Shown here: positions 49,749 to 61,357 of the stretch, in pieces
Position numbering within the stretch: the stretch's first letter is position 1
Layout of the letters: the number at the start of each line of letters is the position of its first letter
From: a virus
Lineage: Duplodnaviria; Caudoviricetes
Strand: one strand, 5' to 3'
Virus record (IMG/VR): IMGVR_UViG_3300046495_000014
Span: 21,602 to 85,601 of that record
Length of the DNA stretch: 64,000 nt
Notes under the pieces: generated by a model
What the model was told of the DNA's origin: nothing
The model's input: the letters and a program-made list of their open reading frames with translations, nothing else
Databases searched by the model: none
Translations under genes and position numbers: made by a program

Positions 49749-50227
49749 TTGGGATCGTCCTCGTATTGTAACGGTTCAGGGATCACACGGATGTCTTGCC
49801 CGCGCGCCAGTAGGTCGAAGAACGCGCGCTTGTCCGGGGCGGATACGTTCGCCAGCGGATCGGCGGGGTCGTACCCCGCTTCCAGTATTCGACGGACCTT
49901 CGGGTTCGCCGCTGCCAGCGACCAGTCTTCCAACTGTAGTTCCGCCAGCACTTCCGGGGCCGACGTCGGCCCGGTCCACCCGCGTTCCTGCCATTCGTAG
50001 CCGCGAACGAACCCGTCCCGGTACGCGGCTTCCAGTAGGTAACGGCAGTATCCGGCGACGACTTCCCGGGGCGCGTCGGGGTTCAGCGCCAGCCACAGTT
50101 GCAGTTCTTCCGTCACCCGCCGGGGTACTTCCGGGCCTTCGTAGTAACGATCGAACAGTCGATCGACTAACCGCTTCAACGCGCGCATTAGCCGCGACGG
50201 CCGGACCCGCTTCGGTTTAGTCGCCAT
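49745..50227 (-). CDS. Hypothetical protein
   Basis: 160 aa. Confidence 0.7.
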   Translation of the reverse strand: MATKPKRVRPSRLMRALKRLVDRLFDRYYEGPEVPRRVTEELQLWLALNPDAPREVVAGYCRYLLEAAYRDGFVRGYEWQERGWTGPTSAPEVLAELQLEDWSLAAANPKVRRILEAGYDPADPLANVSAPDKRAFFDLLARGQDIRVIPEPLQYEDDPK

Positions 50228-52691
50228 CGGTTCCCCCGTCGACGTACTGCGTCAGATCGTCGGGTACGCAGTTCGAGATGTCGCCGCAGGATTCGACGGC
50301 CTTCTTCATATCGCCCTTGAGGAACACGAGTACCGTCTGGTGCGTCCGGCATAGTTTGCGCCCAGCGATGAAGTGCTTGGCCGCGCGTAGGGGTACGCTG
50401 TTCAGCGACGTCACGAGGATCGCTTCGTTGTAATACGACAACCCAGCGTCCGCGAACGCCTGGATCGTACCGGGAACGAATCCGCGGTACGCCCCCGACT
50501 TCGATCGAGCGTCCCGAACTTCGCCGATCACCCAGACCGCGAACCGGTTGTTCGCCAGTCGGGCGCACGACTTCGCGATGATGTCCCGATAGACAGCCCA
50601 AAACGCTTCCGCCCCCATCACGCTGATGTCGCGCGGATCGTCCGAGTAAGTCTCGAGATCCATATACGGGGGGCAACTGAAGATCAGATCGACGTTGTTC
50701 GGGCCGTTATGCGGGTCGGCTAAGTACGTCGACGAATCGGCGGCTACCCACTCCACACCGCCCTGGTCCGACCGGAACCGATGTCCGATCTGGTTCGCTT
50801 GGTACTGGTTCGCTTCGACCTGTTCGGGTCGTAGATCGATCCCGCAGTACCGAAGGCCCAGCCGCTGCGCGACCAGTCCGCGGACGCTCCCGCCCGCGAA
50901 CGGATCCAGCACGGCCGCACCGACGTGCCCGAACCACCGATAAGCCAGTTCGGCCAGTACCGGATCGAATATGCTCAACGTCGTCTGAATCTCGCTGGTG
51001 TCCAGCGGCTGGCCTAGCGCGTCCCCTTGAGTCACCATCCCAGCGGCCCCCACCCGAACCCGGTTCCCGTCGCCGTCCACGCGTCGCGCCGAAGGTAGGA
51101 TGCCCTTCGGCGGCTTCGGCGGCCGGGTCTTCGTCCCCGACTCCGGAACGAACGTCGCCGTATTCTCACGCCCCAAGTACGACTTCAGACCTAGATCGAT
51201 CCACGCCTTCTTCCGATCCTTCCAGTACCCTTGGCGCGCGTCCAGCACCGTGAAGGGGGGGACGGTAAACCGTTCGGCTAGCGTCGTCGTCGCGCGCTCC
51301 ACGTTCGCGTCCGTATCCGGAGCGCTGCCGCCCAGTAGTCGCGACAACTCCGACTGGTCCCACCCAAGTTGTAACGCGCGACCGTCGGGCAAATGCTTCA
51401 GTAATCCGGACAACTTCGACTGGTCCCACGTAGCCAGTTCGCTGGCCTTGTTGTCGGCTAGCGCCAGTTCGTTCGCCTGCGTCCGCGTTAGGTCGGCGCG
51501 GATTCGAACAGGCACGCGCCCAGTACGAACGGCTTGGATCGCTCCCGGATGCCACGTCGATCGTTCTTCCTGCCCGGCCGCTGCGTACCGCTTAGCTAGA
51601 ATGAACATGGCCTTCTTGCGGGTATGCCCCGCGATCAGCCGCTCCCGCCCATCCCGATCCGGATCGGGCCACGCCGATAATGGGGCCGCGAATCCGTACA
51701 GCACGATCAGATCGGCGACGACTTCCGCCGCCCCGTCGTTGTCCCTTGGGTTCTCATCCCAGTCGTCCAACTCAGTAAAGAGCCGCCACACGGCGGGCGC
51801 TTCGTCGGGGTCGCGATCGTCCAACGGTACGTACGGCGCCGACTCCACCGCAACTGGCACAGCAACGGATACAGTGCGGGACCCACCGGCGTCAACCGGC
51901 GCCCCATTACCGCGGTGTCCGACTAGCCACAACAAATCCCCAGCCTGTAAGAACGGAACGCACTTCGCTTCGTAGATCGGATCCAGCGCCACCCCGTCGA
52001 CGGCAACCCCGTCGCACGACTGGCTGTACTCCATCGGCGACTTCACGATCGTCAGCACTGACCGCCAATTCATCGGAGCGTATTCGTCCAACCGCTTTAT
52101 CGGATCCGCCCCCACCTGCACGCCCATTACCGTCGCCGGGTGGTTCCGTTCGAGCAACCCAGCGACTACACCAGCCGCCGACATCCCCGACCCGATGGGC
52201 ATCACGATTCGTCGGATCGTATCGGGGATCGACGCCACTTGCCCGGCGGTAGCCGTTACCGCTTCGGGGCACACCATCCCGAACGGGATATAGAATCGGC
52301 CGGGTTCCGCGGCGTACGCCTTCGCCCTAGCTACGATGACCGAATTGTACCCGGGGCGGTGTTGCTGCACCTGCGCCCCTAACGCCTGGGCCGCCGTAAT
52401 CTCAGCGCCTAGTTCCCCGGCTGGAACGTGGACGGTCACGGTCAGTCCGACCGCGTTTCCCAGCGCCGCCACGATGTGACACTGCGGTGAGTGCCGGCTA
52501 CCCGCCGTCACCAGTTCACAAAATCCCAACTCGACCGCCCTGGTTACTAGGTTGTGGCAGGTGCGGACCTTACCGCCGAAGATGCCAGCGACGCTGAACA
52601 AGTCGTCCCGCTTCAACCACCAGTCCCCGCGCCGTTCCACCGGCGTCAATTCGTCTCCATCGTACAATCGCGTGCGTAATTTGCGTGCCAT
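50217..52691 (-). CDS. Fusion: PLP-dependent ACC-deaminase-like enzyme + ParB-like domain + DNA amino-methyltransferase
   Basis: LTPV...LKRDD...GGKVR; WDENPRDN...LIAGHTR; VLDPFAGG and DLIFSCPPY. Confidence 0.85.
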   Translation of the reverse strand: MARKLRTRLYDGDELTPVERRGDWWLKRDDLFSVAGIFGGKVRTCHNLVTRAVELGFCELVTAGSRHSPQCHIVAALGNAVGLTVTVHVPAGELGAEITAAQALGAQVQQHRPGYNSVIVARAKAYAAEPGRFYIPFGMVCPEAVTATAGQVASIPDTIRRIVMPIGSGMSAAGVVAGLLERNHPATVMGVQVGADPIKRLDEYAPMNWRSVLTIVKSPMEYSQSCDGVAVDGVALDPIYEAKCVPFLQAGDLLWLVGHRGNGAPVDAGGSRTVSVAVPVAVESAPYVPLDDRDPDEAPAVWRLFTELDDWDENPRDNDGAAEVVADLIVLYGFAAPLSAWPDPDRDGRERLIAGHTRKKAMFILAKRYAAAGQEERSTWHPGAIQAVRTGRVPVRIRADLTRTQANELALADNKASELATWDQSKLSGLLKHLPDGRALQLGWDQSELSRLLGGSAPDTDANVERATTTLAERFTVPPFTVLDARQGYWKDRKKAWIDLGLKSYLGRENTATFVPESGTKTRPPKPPKGILPSARRVDGDGNRVRVGAAGMVTQGDALGQPLDTSEIQTTLSIFDPVLAELAYRWFGHVGAAVLDPFAGGSVRGLVAQRLGLRYCGIDLRPEQVEANQYQANQIGHRFRSDQGGVEWVAADSSTYLADPHNGPNNVDLIFSCPPYMDLETYSDDPRDISVMGAEAFWAVYRDIIAKSCARLANNRFAVWVIGEVRDARSKSGAYRGFVPGTIQAFADAGLSYYNEAILVTSLNSVPLRAAKHFIAGRKLCRTHQTVLVFLKGDMKKAVESCGDISNCVPDDLTQYVDGGTDGD

Positions 52692-52715
52692 AGTTCCCGC
52701 CCGAACTATGGCACG
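52684..52715. promoter_or_regulatory. 13-bp inverted repeat spanning CATAGT box and ATG of the fusion gene
   Basis: CGTGCCATAGTTC-6 nt-GAACTATGGCACG. Confidence 0.8.
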
Positions 52716-52740
52716 AACCTAGTTCGGGCGCGCGACCCGT

Positions 52741-53058
52741 TCAGTCCGCGATATCCCAGGGCCATACGACCAGCGTTCGACGCTTCCCCTGCGCCGTCTG
52801 GTAAACCTTCGTCCCGTTTCGCACCGCAGACTTCTGGTAGTGACAGACCGTTGCGGTTTCGACTATCAGTCGACCCGTAAGCATCGTCGATCCGGACAGC
52901 ACGTCGCGCCGAATCACTCGGGCTTCGTACGCGAACGTATTCCGCAGCGGTCCGTACATCCCCATGTCTTCCGCGTAAATCCGAACGACACGGCCCGGCT
53001 CGAACTTCATCGACTGGACGACCGCCGCCGCCCGCTTCGGTAGCGCGAACCGGGTCAT
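52741..53058 (-). CDS. Basic hypothetical protein
   Basis: 105 aa, coupled. Confidence 0.6.
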   Translation of the reverse strand: MTRFALPKRAAAVVQSMKFEPGRVVRIYAEDMGMYGPLRNTFAYEARVIRRDVLSGSTMLTGRLIVETATVCHYQKSAVRNGTKVYQTAQGKRRTLVVWPWDIAD

Positions 53059-57513: not shown

Positions 57514-57535
57514 GACGCCGGATCGATCCGGCGTC
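57514..57535. repeat. 22-bp palindrome copy 12
   Basis: Exact; overlaps recA TGA; 5 nt from CATAGT box. Confidence 0.95.
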
Positions 57536-58730
57536 AGATGAGCGTGCCCGCCACCCTAGACTTCGCCGATAGGTTCCGAACCGCTTCTTCGACTCGGTTC
57601 AGTAGGTCGGCGTCCTTATGCAGTTTCGCCACCGCCGACTCGATCCCCTGCCCTAACGACGTCTTGCCAAACTTGACCCAACTACCTTCGACCTGAACGC
57701 CGCCGATCTCTATCCCGAGGGCTATAACGTCCCTAGGTCGGTCGAACCCGACGTGCCCCGATACCCCGTTGGCCGTGTGGAACCAGGCTTCGGGGGTCCG
57801 GTCCATCTTCCCCGCGACCTTCGTCTTATGGATCTCGAGTCGATGCTTTTCGCCCACGACGATATCGCCGGCCTTGATCCAGCCGCGCGTGATGCGGATG
57901 TCCAAACTGGCTTCGTAGTAGAGGGCAGTGCCGCCGCCGATCTTCCAGGTCTTCGACGACCACATATCGGCGTCCGGGTCTTCCGTCTCCCGAGCGATGA
58001 CGGCCATCGCCATCCGGGTATCGGCTAGCAGGGGTATCAGTTCGTCGACCCACGCCGCGTTCAGCGCGGCCTTGATCTGCCCCGCCCGTCCGCCCATGCC
58101 GTCTATCCCCGACGGCGCCTTGGCGCGTTTACCGCGCTTGGGCTTCGCTTCTTCTTCGTCCGCCTTCGTAGCCTTCGCCAGTTCGTCCCACAGTTTCTTC
58201 GGCACCAGCTTCCGGATCGAGTCGACGACGACGAGCCCCGACGTTTCCGGGGGTAACTTCCCCTTCGCCCTGGCGTTCGCGATCGTCTCGCAGTAGTTCC
58301 GGACGCTGCCGCGCACCTGTTCGTACGTCCCGACCGGAAGCGCGCTGAACCCGGGGTTGTCGGCTAAATCGCCCATCAGCGACCGAACCCACGCGTCGGT
58401 CGTCGTCCGCTCCGCGTCGACCAGTCCCGCGAAGTGATACCGCTGCAAGAACGACGCGATCAACCCCAAGCAGAATTCGGTCTTGCCCTCGTTCGACGGT
58501 CCGTGGACTAGCGCGAACCTCGAGATCGGATGACCGCCGACGCCCGTCACGTGGTCGTACCAGGGGAAGATCGTCGGTACGGCTTCGACGTTCCGGATGA
58601 CTTCGGCCCGCGGCCGGAAGTCGCTGAACTGTCCAGCGACTTCCGCGATCGCCGCGAATCGATCCCGAGCGTCCCGCGCCGCTTCCGCCTGCACTACGCC
58701 TGCGCCTGTGGCGCGGGATGTTCGGGCCAT
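57534..58730 (-). CDS. recA: RecA-like recombinase
   Basis: GPSNEGKT, VVVDS, GGTALYYEASL, KTKVA. Confidence 0.9.
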   Translation of the reverse strand: MARTSRATGAGVVQAEAARDARDRFAAIAEVAGQFSDFRPRAEVIRNVEAVPTIFPWYDHVTGVGGHPISRFALVHGPSNEGKTEFCLGLIASFLQRYHFAGLVDAERTTTDAWVRSLMGDLADNPGFSALPVGTYEQVRGSVRNYCETIANARAKGKLPPETSGLVVVDSIRKLVPKKLWDELAKATKADEEEAKPKRGKRAKAPSGIDGMGGRAGQIKAALNAAWVDELIPLLADTRMAMAVIARETEDPDADMWSSKTWKIGGGTALYYEASLDIRITRGWIKAGDIVVGEKHRLEIHKTKVAGKMDRTPEAWFHTANGVSGHVGFDRPRDVIALGIEIGGVQVEGSWVKFGKTSLGQGIESAVAKLHKDADLLNRVEEAVRNLSAKSRVAGTLI

Positions 58731-60667: not shown

Positions 60668-61357
60668 CTATGGCGCGGACGGTTTCTTCGTCGCCCGTTC
60701 CGCCTTCCGAACGTCGTCGTCGATCGTCCTATCGTCAAGCCAGTCTAGAATGTCGAACCCAGTCGACCGCCGCGCGCCAGGCGCCCAGACCACAAGAGCG
60801 TACGCCGCTGAATCCGTCCCGGGGCCTTCCCTGAACTTCGGCCGGGGCGTGATCAGATAGACGTGCGCCGGCTTCCCTTCGCAGTCCAACCACTGTTGGC
60901 GAGTCCGATCCTTCCCACCCTGCGCGGTAAACCACCCGATCGGGAGTAGCTGCGCCAGAATCCCCGTGGGGGTTAGCGCGTTGAAACTAACTTCCAGATG
61001 CGCCATCGTGTCGTTATACGGCGGGTTGCCGACTATCAGATCGAATTCGCAAAATTCGGCGTTCAAGAAGTTCTGCGATTCGAACCGGACGCCATGTAAA
61101 TCTTCCGGTATCTCAGCGACAGCATCCAGATTCAGATCGTTCGCCAGTATTCGAACAGCCGGAATCCCTATCGCGATTGCGGCGCGGACCCACGCGAACG
61201 CACCGCACGATGGTTCGAGCATGCGAACCACTTCGGGGTTCCGGATCCATCCGTCCTGCACCAGTCGTCGCATGCACGCCCGCGCCAGTCCGGGGGGCGT
61301 GTAACAGGCGTCCGACGCTGCCAACCGATCGTCCTTACTTCTATGCGTTACCGACAT
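60668..61357 (-). CDS. DNA adenine (N6) methyltransferase
   Basis: YTP, LEPSCG, DLIVGNPPY. Confidence 0.85.
   Translation of the reverse strand: MSVTHRSKDDRLAASDACYTPPGLARACMRRLVQDGWIRNPEVVRMLEPSCGAFAWVRAAIAIGIPAVRILANDLNLDAVAEIPEDLHGVRFESQNFLNAEFCEFDLIVGNPPYNDTMAHLEVSFNALTPTGILAQLLPIGWFTAQGGKDRTRQQWLDCEGKPAHVYLITPRPKFREGPGTDSAAYALVVWAPGARRSTGFDILDWLDDRTIDDDVRKAERATKKPSAP

What the first reader, a model, noticed from the sequence alone, without database searches (positions are those of the whole stretch)
50217..52691. PLP enzyme-ParB-DNA methyltransferase triple fusion: candidate new base-modification enzyme
Seen: aa about 1-260 resemble fold-type II ACC deaminase/D-cysteine desulfhydrase, with the putative PLP lysine (GGKVR) kept. 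Residues about 300-440 are ParB/Srx-like. The C-terminal part has amino-methyltransferase motifs DPFAGG and SCPPY. Established: ParB-methyltransferase fusions are common in phages, and PLP enzymes act in some phage hypermodification pathways. I do not know of this three-way fusion. Inference: coupled chemistry beyond methylation, for example transfer of a SAM-derived aminocarboxypropyl or other amino-acid group followed by PLP-dependent elimination, or sulfur mobilisation. A separate NPPY methyltransferase (60668) could cover ordinary methylation.
Basis: partly seen in the sequence, partly recalled or inferred. Interest (0 to 1): 0.8.

Follow-up and report, generated by a model that had tools for sequence, protein, structure and literature searches.

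The report
PLP enzyme fused to phage ParB-methyltransferase
A phage gene joins a vitamin-B6 (PLP) enzyme, a ParB DNA-targeting domain and an unusual DNA methyltransferase-like enzyme in one protein; this pairing recurs in hundreds of uncultured phages but is unstudied, so it may make a DNA mark other than simple methylation.

Summary
It has a compact ACC-deaminase/D-cysteine-desulfhydrase-like PLP domain (aa 12-262, Lys41 kept), a disordered linker, a ParB/Srx domain (about 300-464) and a class I amino-methyltransferase module (471-804). In that module motif I (DPFAGG) comes before motif IV, and motif IV reads CPPY, with Cys where D/N/S is normal.

The fusion is not unique and not a chimera. 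At least 190 protein clusters carry this PLP domain fused to this CPPY methyltransferase in three orders: inserted inside the methyltransferase (about 150), C-terminal (31) and N-terminal (about 10, as here). Split gene pairs also exist (Mycobacterium phage Vincenzo gp1/gp2). The PLP clade is found almost only with this family. The methyltransferase is far commoner without PLP, including in the two closest syntenic phages.

This points to functional coupling, but the chemistry is unknown. My preferred reading (about 0.38) is a SAM-derived amino-alkyl mark on DNA that the PLP domain trims. The main rival (about 0.27) is ordinary methylation with PLP-dependent disposal of SAH or SAM.

I found no paper on this fusion. 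This scan has noted the same family on other DNA.

The parts
50217..52691 (-). Whole ORF, 824 aa plus stop (P0001): PLP - linker - ParB - methyltransferase module
   Evidence: the identical protein P0002 (816 aa, gene call starting 8 codons later) lies on 2 contigs
51906..52658 (-). Compact fold-type II PLP domain (aa 12-262), ACC deaminase/D-cysteine desulfhydrase-like
   Evidence: Pfam PALP E 6e-16; phrog_3650 E 5.7e-35; pLDDT above 90; Foldseek best hits 4d8t, 1j0a, 1tzk; hhalign against E. coli DcyD gives probability 98.5%
52569..52571 (-). Codon of Lys41, the predicted PLP Schiff-base lysine (in GGKVR)
   Evidence: aligns with the PLP lysine of 1j0a, of DcyD, and with K36 of M6 gp52; a Lys sits at this motif in 235 of 241 PLP domains scanned
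51963..51974 (-). YEAK (aa 240-243): catalytic Tyr plus an acidic residue at the ACC-deaminase Glu295 position (Thr in DcyD)
   Evidence: invariant in alignment A7; DcyD aligns as YTGK; M6 gp52 aligns as YDLK
51795..51905 (-). Disordered linker (aa 263-299) between the PLP and ParB domains
   Evidence: pLDDT below 50 for aa 264-289
51300..51794 (-). ParB/Srx-like N-terminal-type domain (aa about 300-464), with GHTRKKA at 355-361
   Evidence: phrog_620 E 7.6e-18 and four further ParB PHROGs; well modelled for aa 300-430; Pfam ParB_N does not match this copy
51162..51281 (-). Conserved N-terminal element of the methyltransferase module (aa 471-510; PPF-VLD-R-G-W--RK--W)
   Evidence: invariant columns P479, G488, W490, R493, W497, G507, R508. 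In L093 the gene between the PLP gene and the methyltransferase gene has a faint PF11307 hit, but the motif itself lies at the start of the methyltransferase gene
50280..50975 (-). Class I SAM-dependent amino-methyltransferase-like catalytic domain (aa 573-804), motif order I before IV
   Evidence: phrog_498 E 8.5e-91; domain model pTM 0.82; best folds TrmN Z 17.5, aTrm11 Z 17.1, Trm14, and METTL5 at rank 7, Z 15.7
50889..50906 (-). Motif I DPFAGG (aa 596-601), the SAM-binding loop
   Evidence: D596, P597, G600 and G601 are invariant
50664..50678 (-). Motif IV SCPPY (aa 672-676): Cys673 replaces the canonical D/N/S
   Evidence: aligned with TSPPY of 2zie; CPPY in 299 of the 300 proteins that match the motif pattern, with or without PLP
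60668..61357 (-). Context: a separate conventional NPPY (gamma-type) DNA methyltransferase, 229 aa
   Evidence: phrog_799 E 4e-23; LIVGNPPY and motif I seen in the translation; its counterpart is kept in the PLP-less relatives L003 and L090

Best explanation
The ORF encodes one real polypeptide that works as a self-contained phage DNA-modification enzyme. The ParB domain brings it to DNA. The CPPY methyltransferase-like domain binds SAM and modifies an exocyclic amino group of a flipped-out base. The N-terminal ACC-deaminase/DcyD-like domain is an active PLP enzyme whose substrate comes from the methyltransferase reaction.

The mechanism I commit to has two steps and yields a hypermodification rather than plain methylation. 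The side chain put on DNA comes from the amino-acid end of SAM. In one variant, 3-amino-3-carboxypropyl is transferred and the PLP domain then decarboxylates or otherwise trims it on DNA. In an equivalent variant, the PLP domain first decarboxylates SAM and the methyltransferase fold then transfers aminopropyl. Either way the base ends up carrying a cationic aminopropyl-type group that would block restriction.

Shown: the domain composition, intact catalytic motifs, recurrent and exclusive PLP-methyltransferase association, and modular gain and loss. Inferred: DNA as the substrate, the base and atom targeted, the group transferred, and the PLP reaction type.
For: 1. Rosetta-stone coupling. The same PLP domain (about 50-59% identical) is fused to the same methyltransferase family in three orders: inserted between motifs I-II and III-IV (150 clusters), C-terminal (31) and N-terminal (about 10). 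It also occurs as a neighbouring gene, as in Vincenzo gp1/gp2, L092 and L093.

2. Exclusivity. Against 1.84 billion representative proteins the PLP domain has only 996 hits at E<=1e-3. The best 150 are fusions or free-standing proteins of about 250-330 aa. Every fused partner examined carries CPPY, apart from one SPPY.

3. The PLP domain is under selection as an enzyme. K41, S68-P69-Q70, G167-S168, Y222, Y240-E241, K243, W255 and G258 are invariant, and G169 nearly so. E241 and V257 match the ACC-deaminase state (Glu295/Leu322, from my own knowledge). That state gives a stronger electron sink than DcyD's Thr/Thr.

4. Precedent. Compact viral PLP enzymes of this fold decarboxylate amino acids tethered to bases in DNA (M6 gp52 and ViI gp226, PMC8989533). 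The domain is homologous to gp52: phrog_7093 E 3.3e-13 and hhalign probability 96.6%. In the ESM Atlas, a 50%-identical free-standing homologue matches by structure a viral PLP domain fused to the amino-acid:DNA transferase ADDT/aGPT-Pplase.

5. Extra tailoring domains. Three family members add an Asp/Asn-beta-hydroxylase-type 2OG oxygenase next to the PLP domain, in two permutations.

6. The phage already has an ordinary NPPY methyltransferase. It has no 5-hydroxymethyl-pyrimidine pathway that could supply another PLP substrate.

7. Phage methyltransferase homologues can transfer non-methyl groups (CmoX with carboxy-SAM, PMC12783734).
Against: The methyltransferase domain has canonical SAM motif I. 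Its nearest solved folds are plain N-methyltransferases of exocyclic amines (TrmN, Trm11, METTL5). No alkyl-transferase signature was found.

Most family members have no PLP domain or gene, including the two closest syntenic phages. No position in the methyltransferase core distinguishes PLP-plus from PLP-minus members. The methyltransferase reaction must therefore be complete on its own.

The PLP family scores higher against cellular DcyD, a beta-eliminating deaminase (hhalign E 1.5e-15), than against the gp52 decarboxylase (5.8e-10).

Aminocarboxypropyl or aminopropyl DNA bases were not found in my literature search. There are no chemical data for any family member.
Confidence: 0.38

Rival explanations
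1. Ordinary (probably promiscuous) DNA N-methylation, with cofactor housekeeping. The CPPY domain is a normal m6A, m4C or m2G methyltransferase. The PLP domain destroys the amino-acid by-product SAH by decarboxylation or gamma-elimination/deamination, or it tunes SAM levels. This relieves product inhibition while a whole phage genome is methylated.
For: Canonical amino-methyltransferase motifs and a fold closest to m2G/m6A methyltransferases. Identical methyltransferase cores with or without PLP, and frequent gain and loss of PLP on the methyltransferase tree. Both fit an optional helper. SAH and SAM are amino-acid-nucleoside conjugates with a free alpha-amine. The ACC-deaminase-like Y-E/V state suits chemistry that ends in 2-oxobutyrate. 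A prophage ParB-methyltransferase (M.BceSVII) is a promiscuous m6A enzyme (PMC3526280, PMC3459991).
Against: A general SAH scavenger should also turn up with the far commoner Dam-like, Dcm-like and other phage methyltransferases, yet it is seen only with the CPPY family. The co-fused 2OG oxygenase in some members has no role in SAH disposal. Gamma-elimination from a thioether is not known for this fold (my own knowledge). Whether M.BceSVII belongs to the CPPY family could not be checked.
Confidence: 0.27
2. Independent functions on one chain (polyvalent-protein logic). The PLP domain acts on a free small molecule unrelated to the methyltransferase, such as D-cysteine, D-serine, ACC or a host signalling or defence metabolite. 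It is fused only for co-expression or co-packaging.
For: The best cellular relatives are DcyD, CuyA, XcbE and ACC deaminase, which act on free amino acids. A disordered linker of about 35 aa separates the domain from ParB. Phage polyvalent proteins do combine unrelated activities (PMC5512222).
Against: Polyvalent domains mix with many partners, whereas this PLP clade is tied to a single methyltransferase family. It is most often inserted inside that catalytic domain. All curated cellular family cut-offs are missed by a wide margin (25-38 bits against 289-450). The canonical Asn of the substrate loop is replaced by an invariant Pro.
Confidence: 0.15
3. The PLP domain supplies an altered cofactor or a sulfur atom to the methyltransferase. 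It might make a SAM analogue in the way CmoA does for CmoX, or load a persulfide on the invariant Cys673.
For: The CmoA/CmoX precedent for a partner enzyme remodelling SAM (PMC12783734). The invariant Cys in motif IV. The desulfhydrase kinship of the PLP domain.
Against: Cys673 is equally invariant in the PLP-less majority, and no residue in the methyltransferase core tracks PLP presence. CmoX, by contrast, has a diagnostic Arg for its altered cofactor.
Confidence: 0.08
4. Artefact or decayed domain: the fusion is an assembly chimera, or the PLP domain is a non-catalytic relic.
For: The closest relatives (66-73% identical) lack the domain.
Against: Composition is uniform across the ORF. The same protein lies on two contigs. 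Other lineages independently show the same order. Every catalytic residue is kept and the domain is confidently folded.
Confidence: 0.02

Closest known systems
Phage/prophage ParB-N6/N4 DNA methyltransferase fusions (e.g. M.BceSVII = BCE_0392; ParB-CTPase-fold survey, PMC12704722)
   Same: A ParB N-terminal-type domain is fused upstream of a SAM-dependent amino-methyltransferase. These fusions are enriched in phages and prophages and often sit near replication or terminase genes.
   Different: This family has motif I before motif IV, an invariant Cys in motif IV (CPPY) and a conserved extra N-terminal element. In a minority of members, including this one, there is also a PLP enzyme domain. I could not test whether M.BceSVII belongs to the CPPY family.
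PLP-dependent decarboxylases of amino-acid:nucleobase conjugates in DNA: Pseudomonas phage M6 gp52 and Salmonella phage ViI gp226 (PMC8989533)
   Same: They are compact viral fold-type II PLP enzymes modelled on 1j0a. They share the Lys, the Ser, the Gly-rich loop and a Tyr-acid-x-Lys motif. Homology is significant.
   Different: Identity is only about 23-25%. The window's domain is closer to cellular DcyD. The gp52 pathway partners (5-hmdU kinase, aGPT-Pplase, radical SAM enzyme, thymidylate-synthase homologue) are absent from this genome. Here the partner is a methyltransferase fold.
ACC deaminase / D-cysteine desulfhydrase family (PDB 1tzk, 1f2d, 4d8t, 1j0a; TIGR01274/TIGR01275)
   Same: The fold, the PLP lysine, Ser78, Tyr294/287, the phosphate loop and a Glu at the ACC-deaminase 295 position are shared.
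   Different: The domain is about 80 residues shorter. The substrate-loop Asn is replaced by an invariant Pro. Scores fall far below the curated cut-offs. The clade is viral and always tied to a methyltransferase.
CmoA/CmoX carboxymethylcytosine system of Synechococcus phage S-B43 (PMC12783734)
   Same: A phage DNA methyltransferase homologue is coupled to a second enzyme so that a non-methyl group reaches DNA. ParB-domain genes are frequent neighbours.
   Different: CmoX is a C5-cytosine methyltransferase homologue that uses carboxy-SAM made by CmoA, which is not a PLP enzyme. No cofactor-specific residue was found here.
SAM-dependent aminocarboxypropyl and aminopropyl transferases with a methyltransferase fold (TYW2, spermidine synthase; from my own knowledge, not tested)
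   Same: A class I methyltransferase fold can transfer the C3/C4 amino-acid part of SAM or dcSAM instead of methyl.
   Different: No specific sequence or fold similarity was seen. The best folds are plain N-methyltransferases.

Membership tests
Fold-type II PLP enzymes, ACC deaminase/D-cysteine desulfhydrase group | PALP domain match and fold | tested here: met
   Pfam PALP 59 bits against a cut-off of 35; Foldseek best hits 4d8t, 1j0a, 1tzk at E about 1e-11; hhalign against DcyD gives 98.5%
Fold-type II PLP enzymes, ACC deaminase/D-cysteine desulfhydrase group | Schiff-base lysine and glycine-rich phosphate loop | tested here: met
   K41 aligns with the PLP lysine. G167 and S168 are invariant and G169 nearly so. 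A Lys sits at this motif in 235 of 241 PLP domains scanned
Fold-type II PLP enzymes, ACC deaminase/D-cysteine desulfhydrase group | Substrate loop Ser-Asn-His/Gln | tested here: not met
   The loop reads S68-P69-Q70. Pro is invariant where Asn is expected
Fold-type II PLP enzymes, ACC deaminase/D-cysteine desulfhydrase group | Score above the curated cut-off for ACC deaminase, DcyD, CuyA or XcbE | tested here: not met
   25-38 bits against cut-offs of 289-450
ACC deaminase proper | Glu295 and Leu322 signature (against Thr/Thr in DcyD; from my own knowledge) | tested here: inconclusive
   E241 aligns with the Thr of DcyD's YTGK. I matched V257 to the 322 position by eye. ACC-deaminase activity cannot be tested here
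ParB/Srx N-terminal domain | Profile match to a ParB N-terminal domain | tested here: inconclusive
   Five ParB PHROGs match, E down to 7.6e-18. Pfam PF02195 does not match this copy at E<=1, but it does match homologues
ParB/Srx N-terminal domain | NTP binding or nicking activity | not testable with these tools
   A GHTR arginine motif is present at aa 355-358; no activity data exist
N6/N4 amino-DNA methyltransferases (PF01555, beta class) | SAM-binding motif I | tested here: met
   DPFAGG aligns with motif I of 2zie, CcrM and M.PvuII
N6/N4 amino-DNA methyltransferases (PF01555, beta class) | Catalytic motif IV (D/N/S)PP(Y/F) | tested here: not met
   The motif reads CPPY. Cys is found in 299 of the 300 proteins matching the motif pattern
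N6/N4 amino-DNA methyltransferases (PF01555, beta class) | Motif order IV before I, and Pfam gathering score | tested here: not met
   The order is I (596) before IV (673). Pfam gives 26.4 bits against 26.7, and only the motif I end of the model is matched
Class I SAM-dependent methyltransferase fold acting on exocyclic amines (Trm11/TrmN/METTL5-like) | Rossmann-like methyltransferase fold with an xPPY loop after strand 4 | tested here: met
   VIA-align Z 17.5 (TrmN), 17.1 (aTrm11) and 15.7 (METTL5)
Phage PLP decarboxylases of DNA-tethered amino acids (M6 gp52 family, phrog_7093) | Homology to gp52 | tested here: met
   phrog_7093 E 3.3e-13; BLASTP 1e-5; hhalign 96.6%
Phage PLP decarboxylases of DNA-tethered amino acids (M6 gp52 family, phrog_7093) | gp52 family is the nearest relative | tested here: not met
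   DcyD scores higher (108 against 71). The domain's own family is phrog_3650
Phage PLP decarboxylases of DNA-tethered amino acids (M6 gp52 family, phrog_7093) | Gene context of 5-hmdU kinase, aGPT-Pplase and dUMP hydroxymethylase | tested here: not met
   No BLAST-detectable homologues in the 85.6-kb genome; PF00303 is absent
Phage PLP decarboxylases of DNA-tethered amino acids (M6 gp52 family, phrog_7093) | Decarboxylase activity on DNA | not testable with these tools
   Needs biochemistry

The most novel reading that the evidence does not exclude
The CPPY methyltransferase-like family transfers the amino-acid arm of SAM (aminocarboxypropyl or aminopropyl) rather than methyl to an exocyclic amine of a DNA base. 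The fused PLP domain, and in some members a 2OG oxygenase, tailors that arm. This would be a new, SAM-derived class of phage DNA hypermodification on purines or cytosine, made by a single polypeptide.
Probability: 0.33. Interest if true: 0.9.

Novelty: new variant of a known kind. Interest (0 to 1): 0.68.

Why it matters
Known phage DNA hypermodification pathways mostly start from 5-hydroxymethyl-pyrimidines, 7-deazaguanine or glycosylation.

Here a PLP enzyme is tied exclusively to one unusual methyltransferase family, one that is present in many thousands of phage and prophage protein clusters. That link points either to an undescribed SAM-derived mark on DNA or to a new way of keeping a hyperactive methyltransferase free of product inhibition.

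Either outcome would affect several things:
- how restriction, BREX and type IV systems see these phages;
- how nanopore and SMRT signals from them are read;
- the enzyme toolbox for DNA labelling.

The question can be tested directly, because cultured phages carry the pair: Pseudanabaena phage Pam4 and Mycobacterium phages Vincenzo and AlanGrant.

Tried and rejected
1. Plus-strand reading of the coordinates gives only stops. The gene is on the minus strand.

2. No near-identical DNA in 50,697 phage records.

3. Literature searches found nothing on this fusion or motif. They covered ParB + methyltransferase + PLP/ACC deaminase, 'CPPY', Pam4, and aminocarboxypropyl DNA. The VarioGold and Dnd papers were irrelevant.

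4. I expected the PLP domain to be specifically closest to the M6 gp52 decarboxylase family. hhalign showed cellular DcyD is closer, so I dropped that claim.

5. I looked for residues in the methyltransferase core that track PLP presence, as a sign of an altered cofactor. None was found (fixed-offset windows only).

6. I tried to place M.BceSVII (BCE_0392) in or out of the CPPY family.

7. The large mixed alignment A2 misaligned the query's PLP domain and was discarded in favour of A3.

8. The first ESM Atlas call failed. A free-standing homologue 50% identical to the window's PLP domain was used instead.

9. Complex prediction (PLP domain against the methyltransferase domain). No result was obtained.

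10. The full-length AlphaFold model has pTM 0.46, so it says nothing about how the domains pack.

11. The BFVD fold search added nothing beyond Vincenzo gp1 and unnamed viral proteins.


Full report
OBSERVATION. The coordinates 50217-52691 hold one uninterrupted ORF of 824 codons on the minus strand; the plus strand gives only stops. The window is the right-hand 64 kb of an 85.6-kb IMG/VR virus record with 62% GC, estimated 93% complete, with nearly all genes on the minus strand. The gene sits in the replication/recombination module. Upstream are family B DNA polymerase, an NPPY methyltransferase, a UvsX/RecA-like protein and SbcD/SbcC. Downstream is a helicase, and further on are terminase and portal.

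DOMAINS. Pfam PALP matches aa 23-202 (E 6e-16). PHROGs place aa 15-199 in phrog_3650 (function unknown) and aa 22-245 in phrog_7093. Five ParB PHROGs match aa 306-516, and phrog_498 'DNA methyltransferase' matches aa 574-816 at E 8.5e-91.

Lys41 of GGKVR aligns with the PLP lysine of the ACC-deaminase homologue 1j0a. AlphaFold2 models three confident domains joined by disordered linkers: PLP 12-262, ParB about 300-430 and methyltransferase about 575-800. With pTM 0.46, the packing of the domains is undefined. The PLP domain's best solved folds are Salmonella D-cysteine desulfhydrase, 1j0a and ACC deaminase.

The methyltransferase module modelled alone (pTM 0.82) is a class I SAM methyltransferase. 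Its nearest solved relatives are the exocyclic-amine N-methyltransferases TrmN, Trm11 and Trm14 (Z 17-17.5), with METTL5 at rank 7 (Z 15.7). Motif I (DPFAGG, 596-601) precedes motif IV (672-676). The residue at the D/N/S position of motif IV is Cys.

THE FUSION IS WIDESPREAD AND PERMUTED. A search of 5.8 billion proteins returned well over a hundred clusters with PALP plus N6_N4_Mtase, with or without a ParB_N call. Mapping the query's segments on all collected proteins gave these counts:
- 150 clusters with the PLP domain inserted inside the methyltransferase, between motifs I-II and III-IV;
- 31 with the PLP domain at the C-terminus;
- about 10 with it at the N-terminus, as here;
- 44 free-standing PLP proteins.

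Pseudanabaena phage Pam4 gp70 is an inserted-type member, annotated only as 'pyridoxal-phosphate dependent enzyme'. Mycobacterium phages Vincenzo and AlanGrant carry the pair as adjacent genes in the reverse order, next to the terminase. Two free-standing PLP genes examined on contigs lie one to three genes from a CPPY methyltransferase gene. A Loktanella MAG has a C-terminal fusion.

The association is nearly exclusive from the PLP side. Against 1.84 billion representatives the PLP domain has only 996 hits at E<=1e-3 and 362 at 1e-30. The top 150 are all fusions or free-standing proteins of about 250-330 aa.

From the methyltransferase side it is the opposite. The ParB-CPPY family is very large (7,241 hits among 8,000 scored candidates) and occurs in prophages of many bacterial phyla, mostly without PLP. 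CPPY is found in 299 of the 300 proteins that match the motif pattern, whether or not they carry PLP.

MODULARITY. On a tree of methyltransferase cores the PLP states are interspersed. Well-supported branches force at least 8-12 changes. The window's protein nests with 99% local support among six PLP-less proteins, and that group is sister to an inserted-type clade.

The two closest phages, L003 and L090, have ParB-methyltransferases 66-73% identical to the window's, and L003 is syntenic from polymerase to helicase (L090 over the same genes from the end of the polymerase gene). Neither has a PLP domain or PLP gene within 10 kb. Their proteins share the first six residues with the window's protein, so the PLP cassette looks like an in-frame insertion right behind the start codon. 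GC and GC3 are uniform along the ORF. No position in the methyltransferase core separates PLP-plus from PLP-minus members (Jensen-Shannon at most 0.17).

IS THE PLP DOMAIN AN ENZYME, AND WHICH KIND? K41, S68-P69-Q70, G167-S168, Y222, Y240-E241, K243, W255 and G258 are invariant among 26 family members, and G169 nearly so. A Lys sits at the GG-K motif in 235 of 241 PLP domains scanned.

Profile comparison shows clear homology to E. coli DcyD (98.5%, E 1.5e-15) and to Pseudomonas phage M6 gp52 (96.6%, E 5.8e-10). M6 gp52 and ViI gp226 are experimentally PLP-dependent decarboxylases of amino acids tethered to thymine in DNA, and gp226 was modelled on 1j0a (PMC8989533). The kinship is therefore real, but the window's domain is not specifically closest to gp52.

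Relative to DcyD, the substrate-loop Asn is an invariant Pro and the Thr after the catalytic Tyr is Glu. gp52 has Asp at that position. With V257, this resembles the ACC-deaminase Glu295/Leu322 state (my own knowledge). All curated NCBIfam cut-offs are missed by far. In the ESM Atlas a 50%-identical free-standing homologue has only viral neighbours. By structure these include PLP domains fused to ADDT/aGPT-Pplase amino-acid:DNA transferases.

CONTEXT CLUES. The genome has no detectable thymidylate-synthase/hydroxymethylase, 5-hmdU kinase, aGPT-Pplase or radical SAM partner. The PLP substrate therefore cannot come from the known thymidine pathway.

The neighbourhoods of other members show no conserved accessory gene, so the protein looks self-contained.

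Three long members add a conserved Asp/Asn-beta-hydroxylase-type 2OG oxygenase next to the PLP domain, in two permutations. One adds a second methyltransferase, and one carries an intein. Staphylococcus phage Alsa_1 has a more distant PLP homologue about 1 kb from an SPPY relative of the methyltransferase.

INTERPRETATION. The evidence is: three permutations plus split pairs, exclusivity on the PLP side, intact catalytic residues, and co-travelling tailoring domains. Together these make functional coupling of PLP chemistry to the methyltransferase reaction very likely (about 0.8).

The only PLP-compatible molecules that a SAM-dependent transferase offers are the amino-acid arm of SAM (on DNA after transfer, or on SAM itself) and SAH. 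I favour a SAM-derived amino-alkyl mark trimmed by the PLP domain (0.38), for four reasons:
- the association is exclusive to one odd methyltransferase family;
- there is viral precedent for PLP enzymes acting on DNA-tethered amino acids;
- some members add a fused oxygenase;
- the phage has a separate ordinary NPPY methyltransferase.

Plain methylation with SAH/SAM housekeeping (0.27) fits better with the canonical methyltransferase motifs, the identical cores with and without PLP, and the frequent loss of the domain. An unrelated free-metabolite function (0.15), a cofactor or sulfur supply role (0.08) and an artefact (0.02) are less likely.

LITERATURE AND EARLIER NOTES. ParB-methyltransferase fusions are known to be enriched in phages (PMC12704722). 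One prophage example, M.BceSVII, is a promiscuous m6A enzyme with nicking activity (PMC3526280, PMC3459991, PMC3592412). I could not establish whether it is a CPPY member. I found no paper on the PLP fusion or the CPPY motif. Phage methyltransferase homologues that transfer non-methyl groups exist (CmoX; PMC12783734). This scan has already noted the same family in three other genomes; I re-tested those leads here.

LIMITS. No chemistry was measured. The target base, the atom and the transferred group are inferred.

Noticed in passing
window 60668-61357 (-): A separate 229-aa gamma-type DNA methyltransferase with LIVGNPPY and a motif I, next to the family B DNA polymerase. Its counterpart is kept in the PLP-less relatives L003 and L090.
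   Followed up: partly
window 52658-52691 (-) compared with P0003-P0007: The first six residues (M-A/T-R-K-L-R) are shared with the PLP-less closest relatives. The PLP cassette therefore looks like an in-frame insertion just behind the start codon of an ancestral ParB-methyltransferase gene.
   Followed up: partly
P0087, P0091, P0174 (metagenomic homologues): An Asp/Asn-beta-hydroxylase-type 2OG oxygenase domain (53-65% identical among the three) is fused next to the PLP domain. It is inserted inside the methyltransferase in two proteins and C-terminal in the third.
   Followed up: partly
L089 (Staphylococcus phage Alsa_1) 1831-2817 and 3863-4591: A Twort-like phage has a distant PLP homologue (31% identical) about 1 kb from a methyltransferase that reads SPPY..LE.Y instead of CPPY.
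   Followed up: partly
L093 5027-5602 and 5602-6657: A 191-aa gene with a faint PF11307 (Rv0495c) hit lies between the free-standing PLP gene and the CPPY methyltransferase gene. The same faint family hit appears inside the fused proteins P0015 and P0022.
   Followed up: no
L090 3119-5380: In the closest PLP-less relative, the RecA-like recombinase is 753 aa and has a LAGLIDADG hit (a probable intein). The window's copy (57534-58730) is 398 aa.
   Followed up: no
L007 6487-7038: A gamma-glutamylcyclotransferase-like (GGACT) gene lies two genes downstream of the oxygenase-carrying fusion P0087. It may be another tailoring enzyme.
   Followed up: no
window 52692-52760 (-): A CATAGT box lies about 15 nt upstream of the ORF's ATG, followed by a G-rich stretch. 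Earlier notes on this genome describe CATAGT-type -10 boxes and many leaderless genes, which would fit an actinobacterial host.
   Followed up: no
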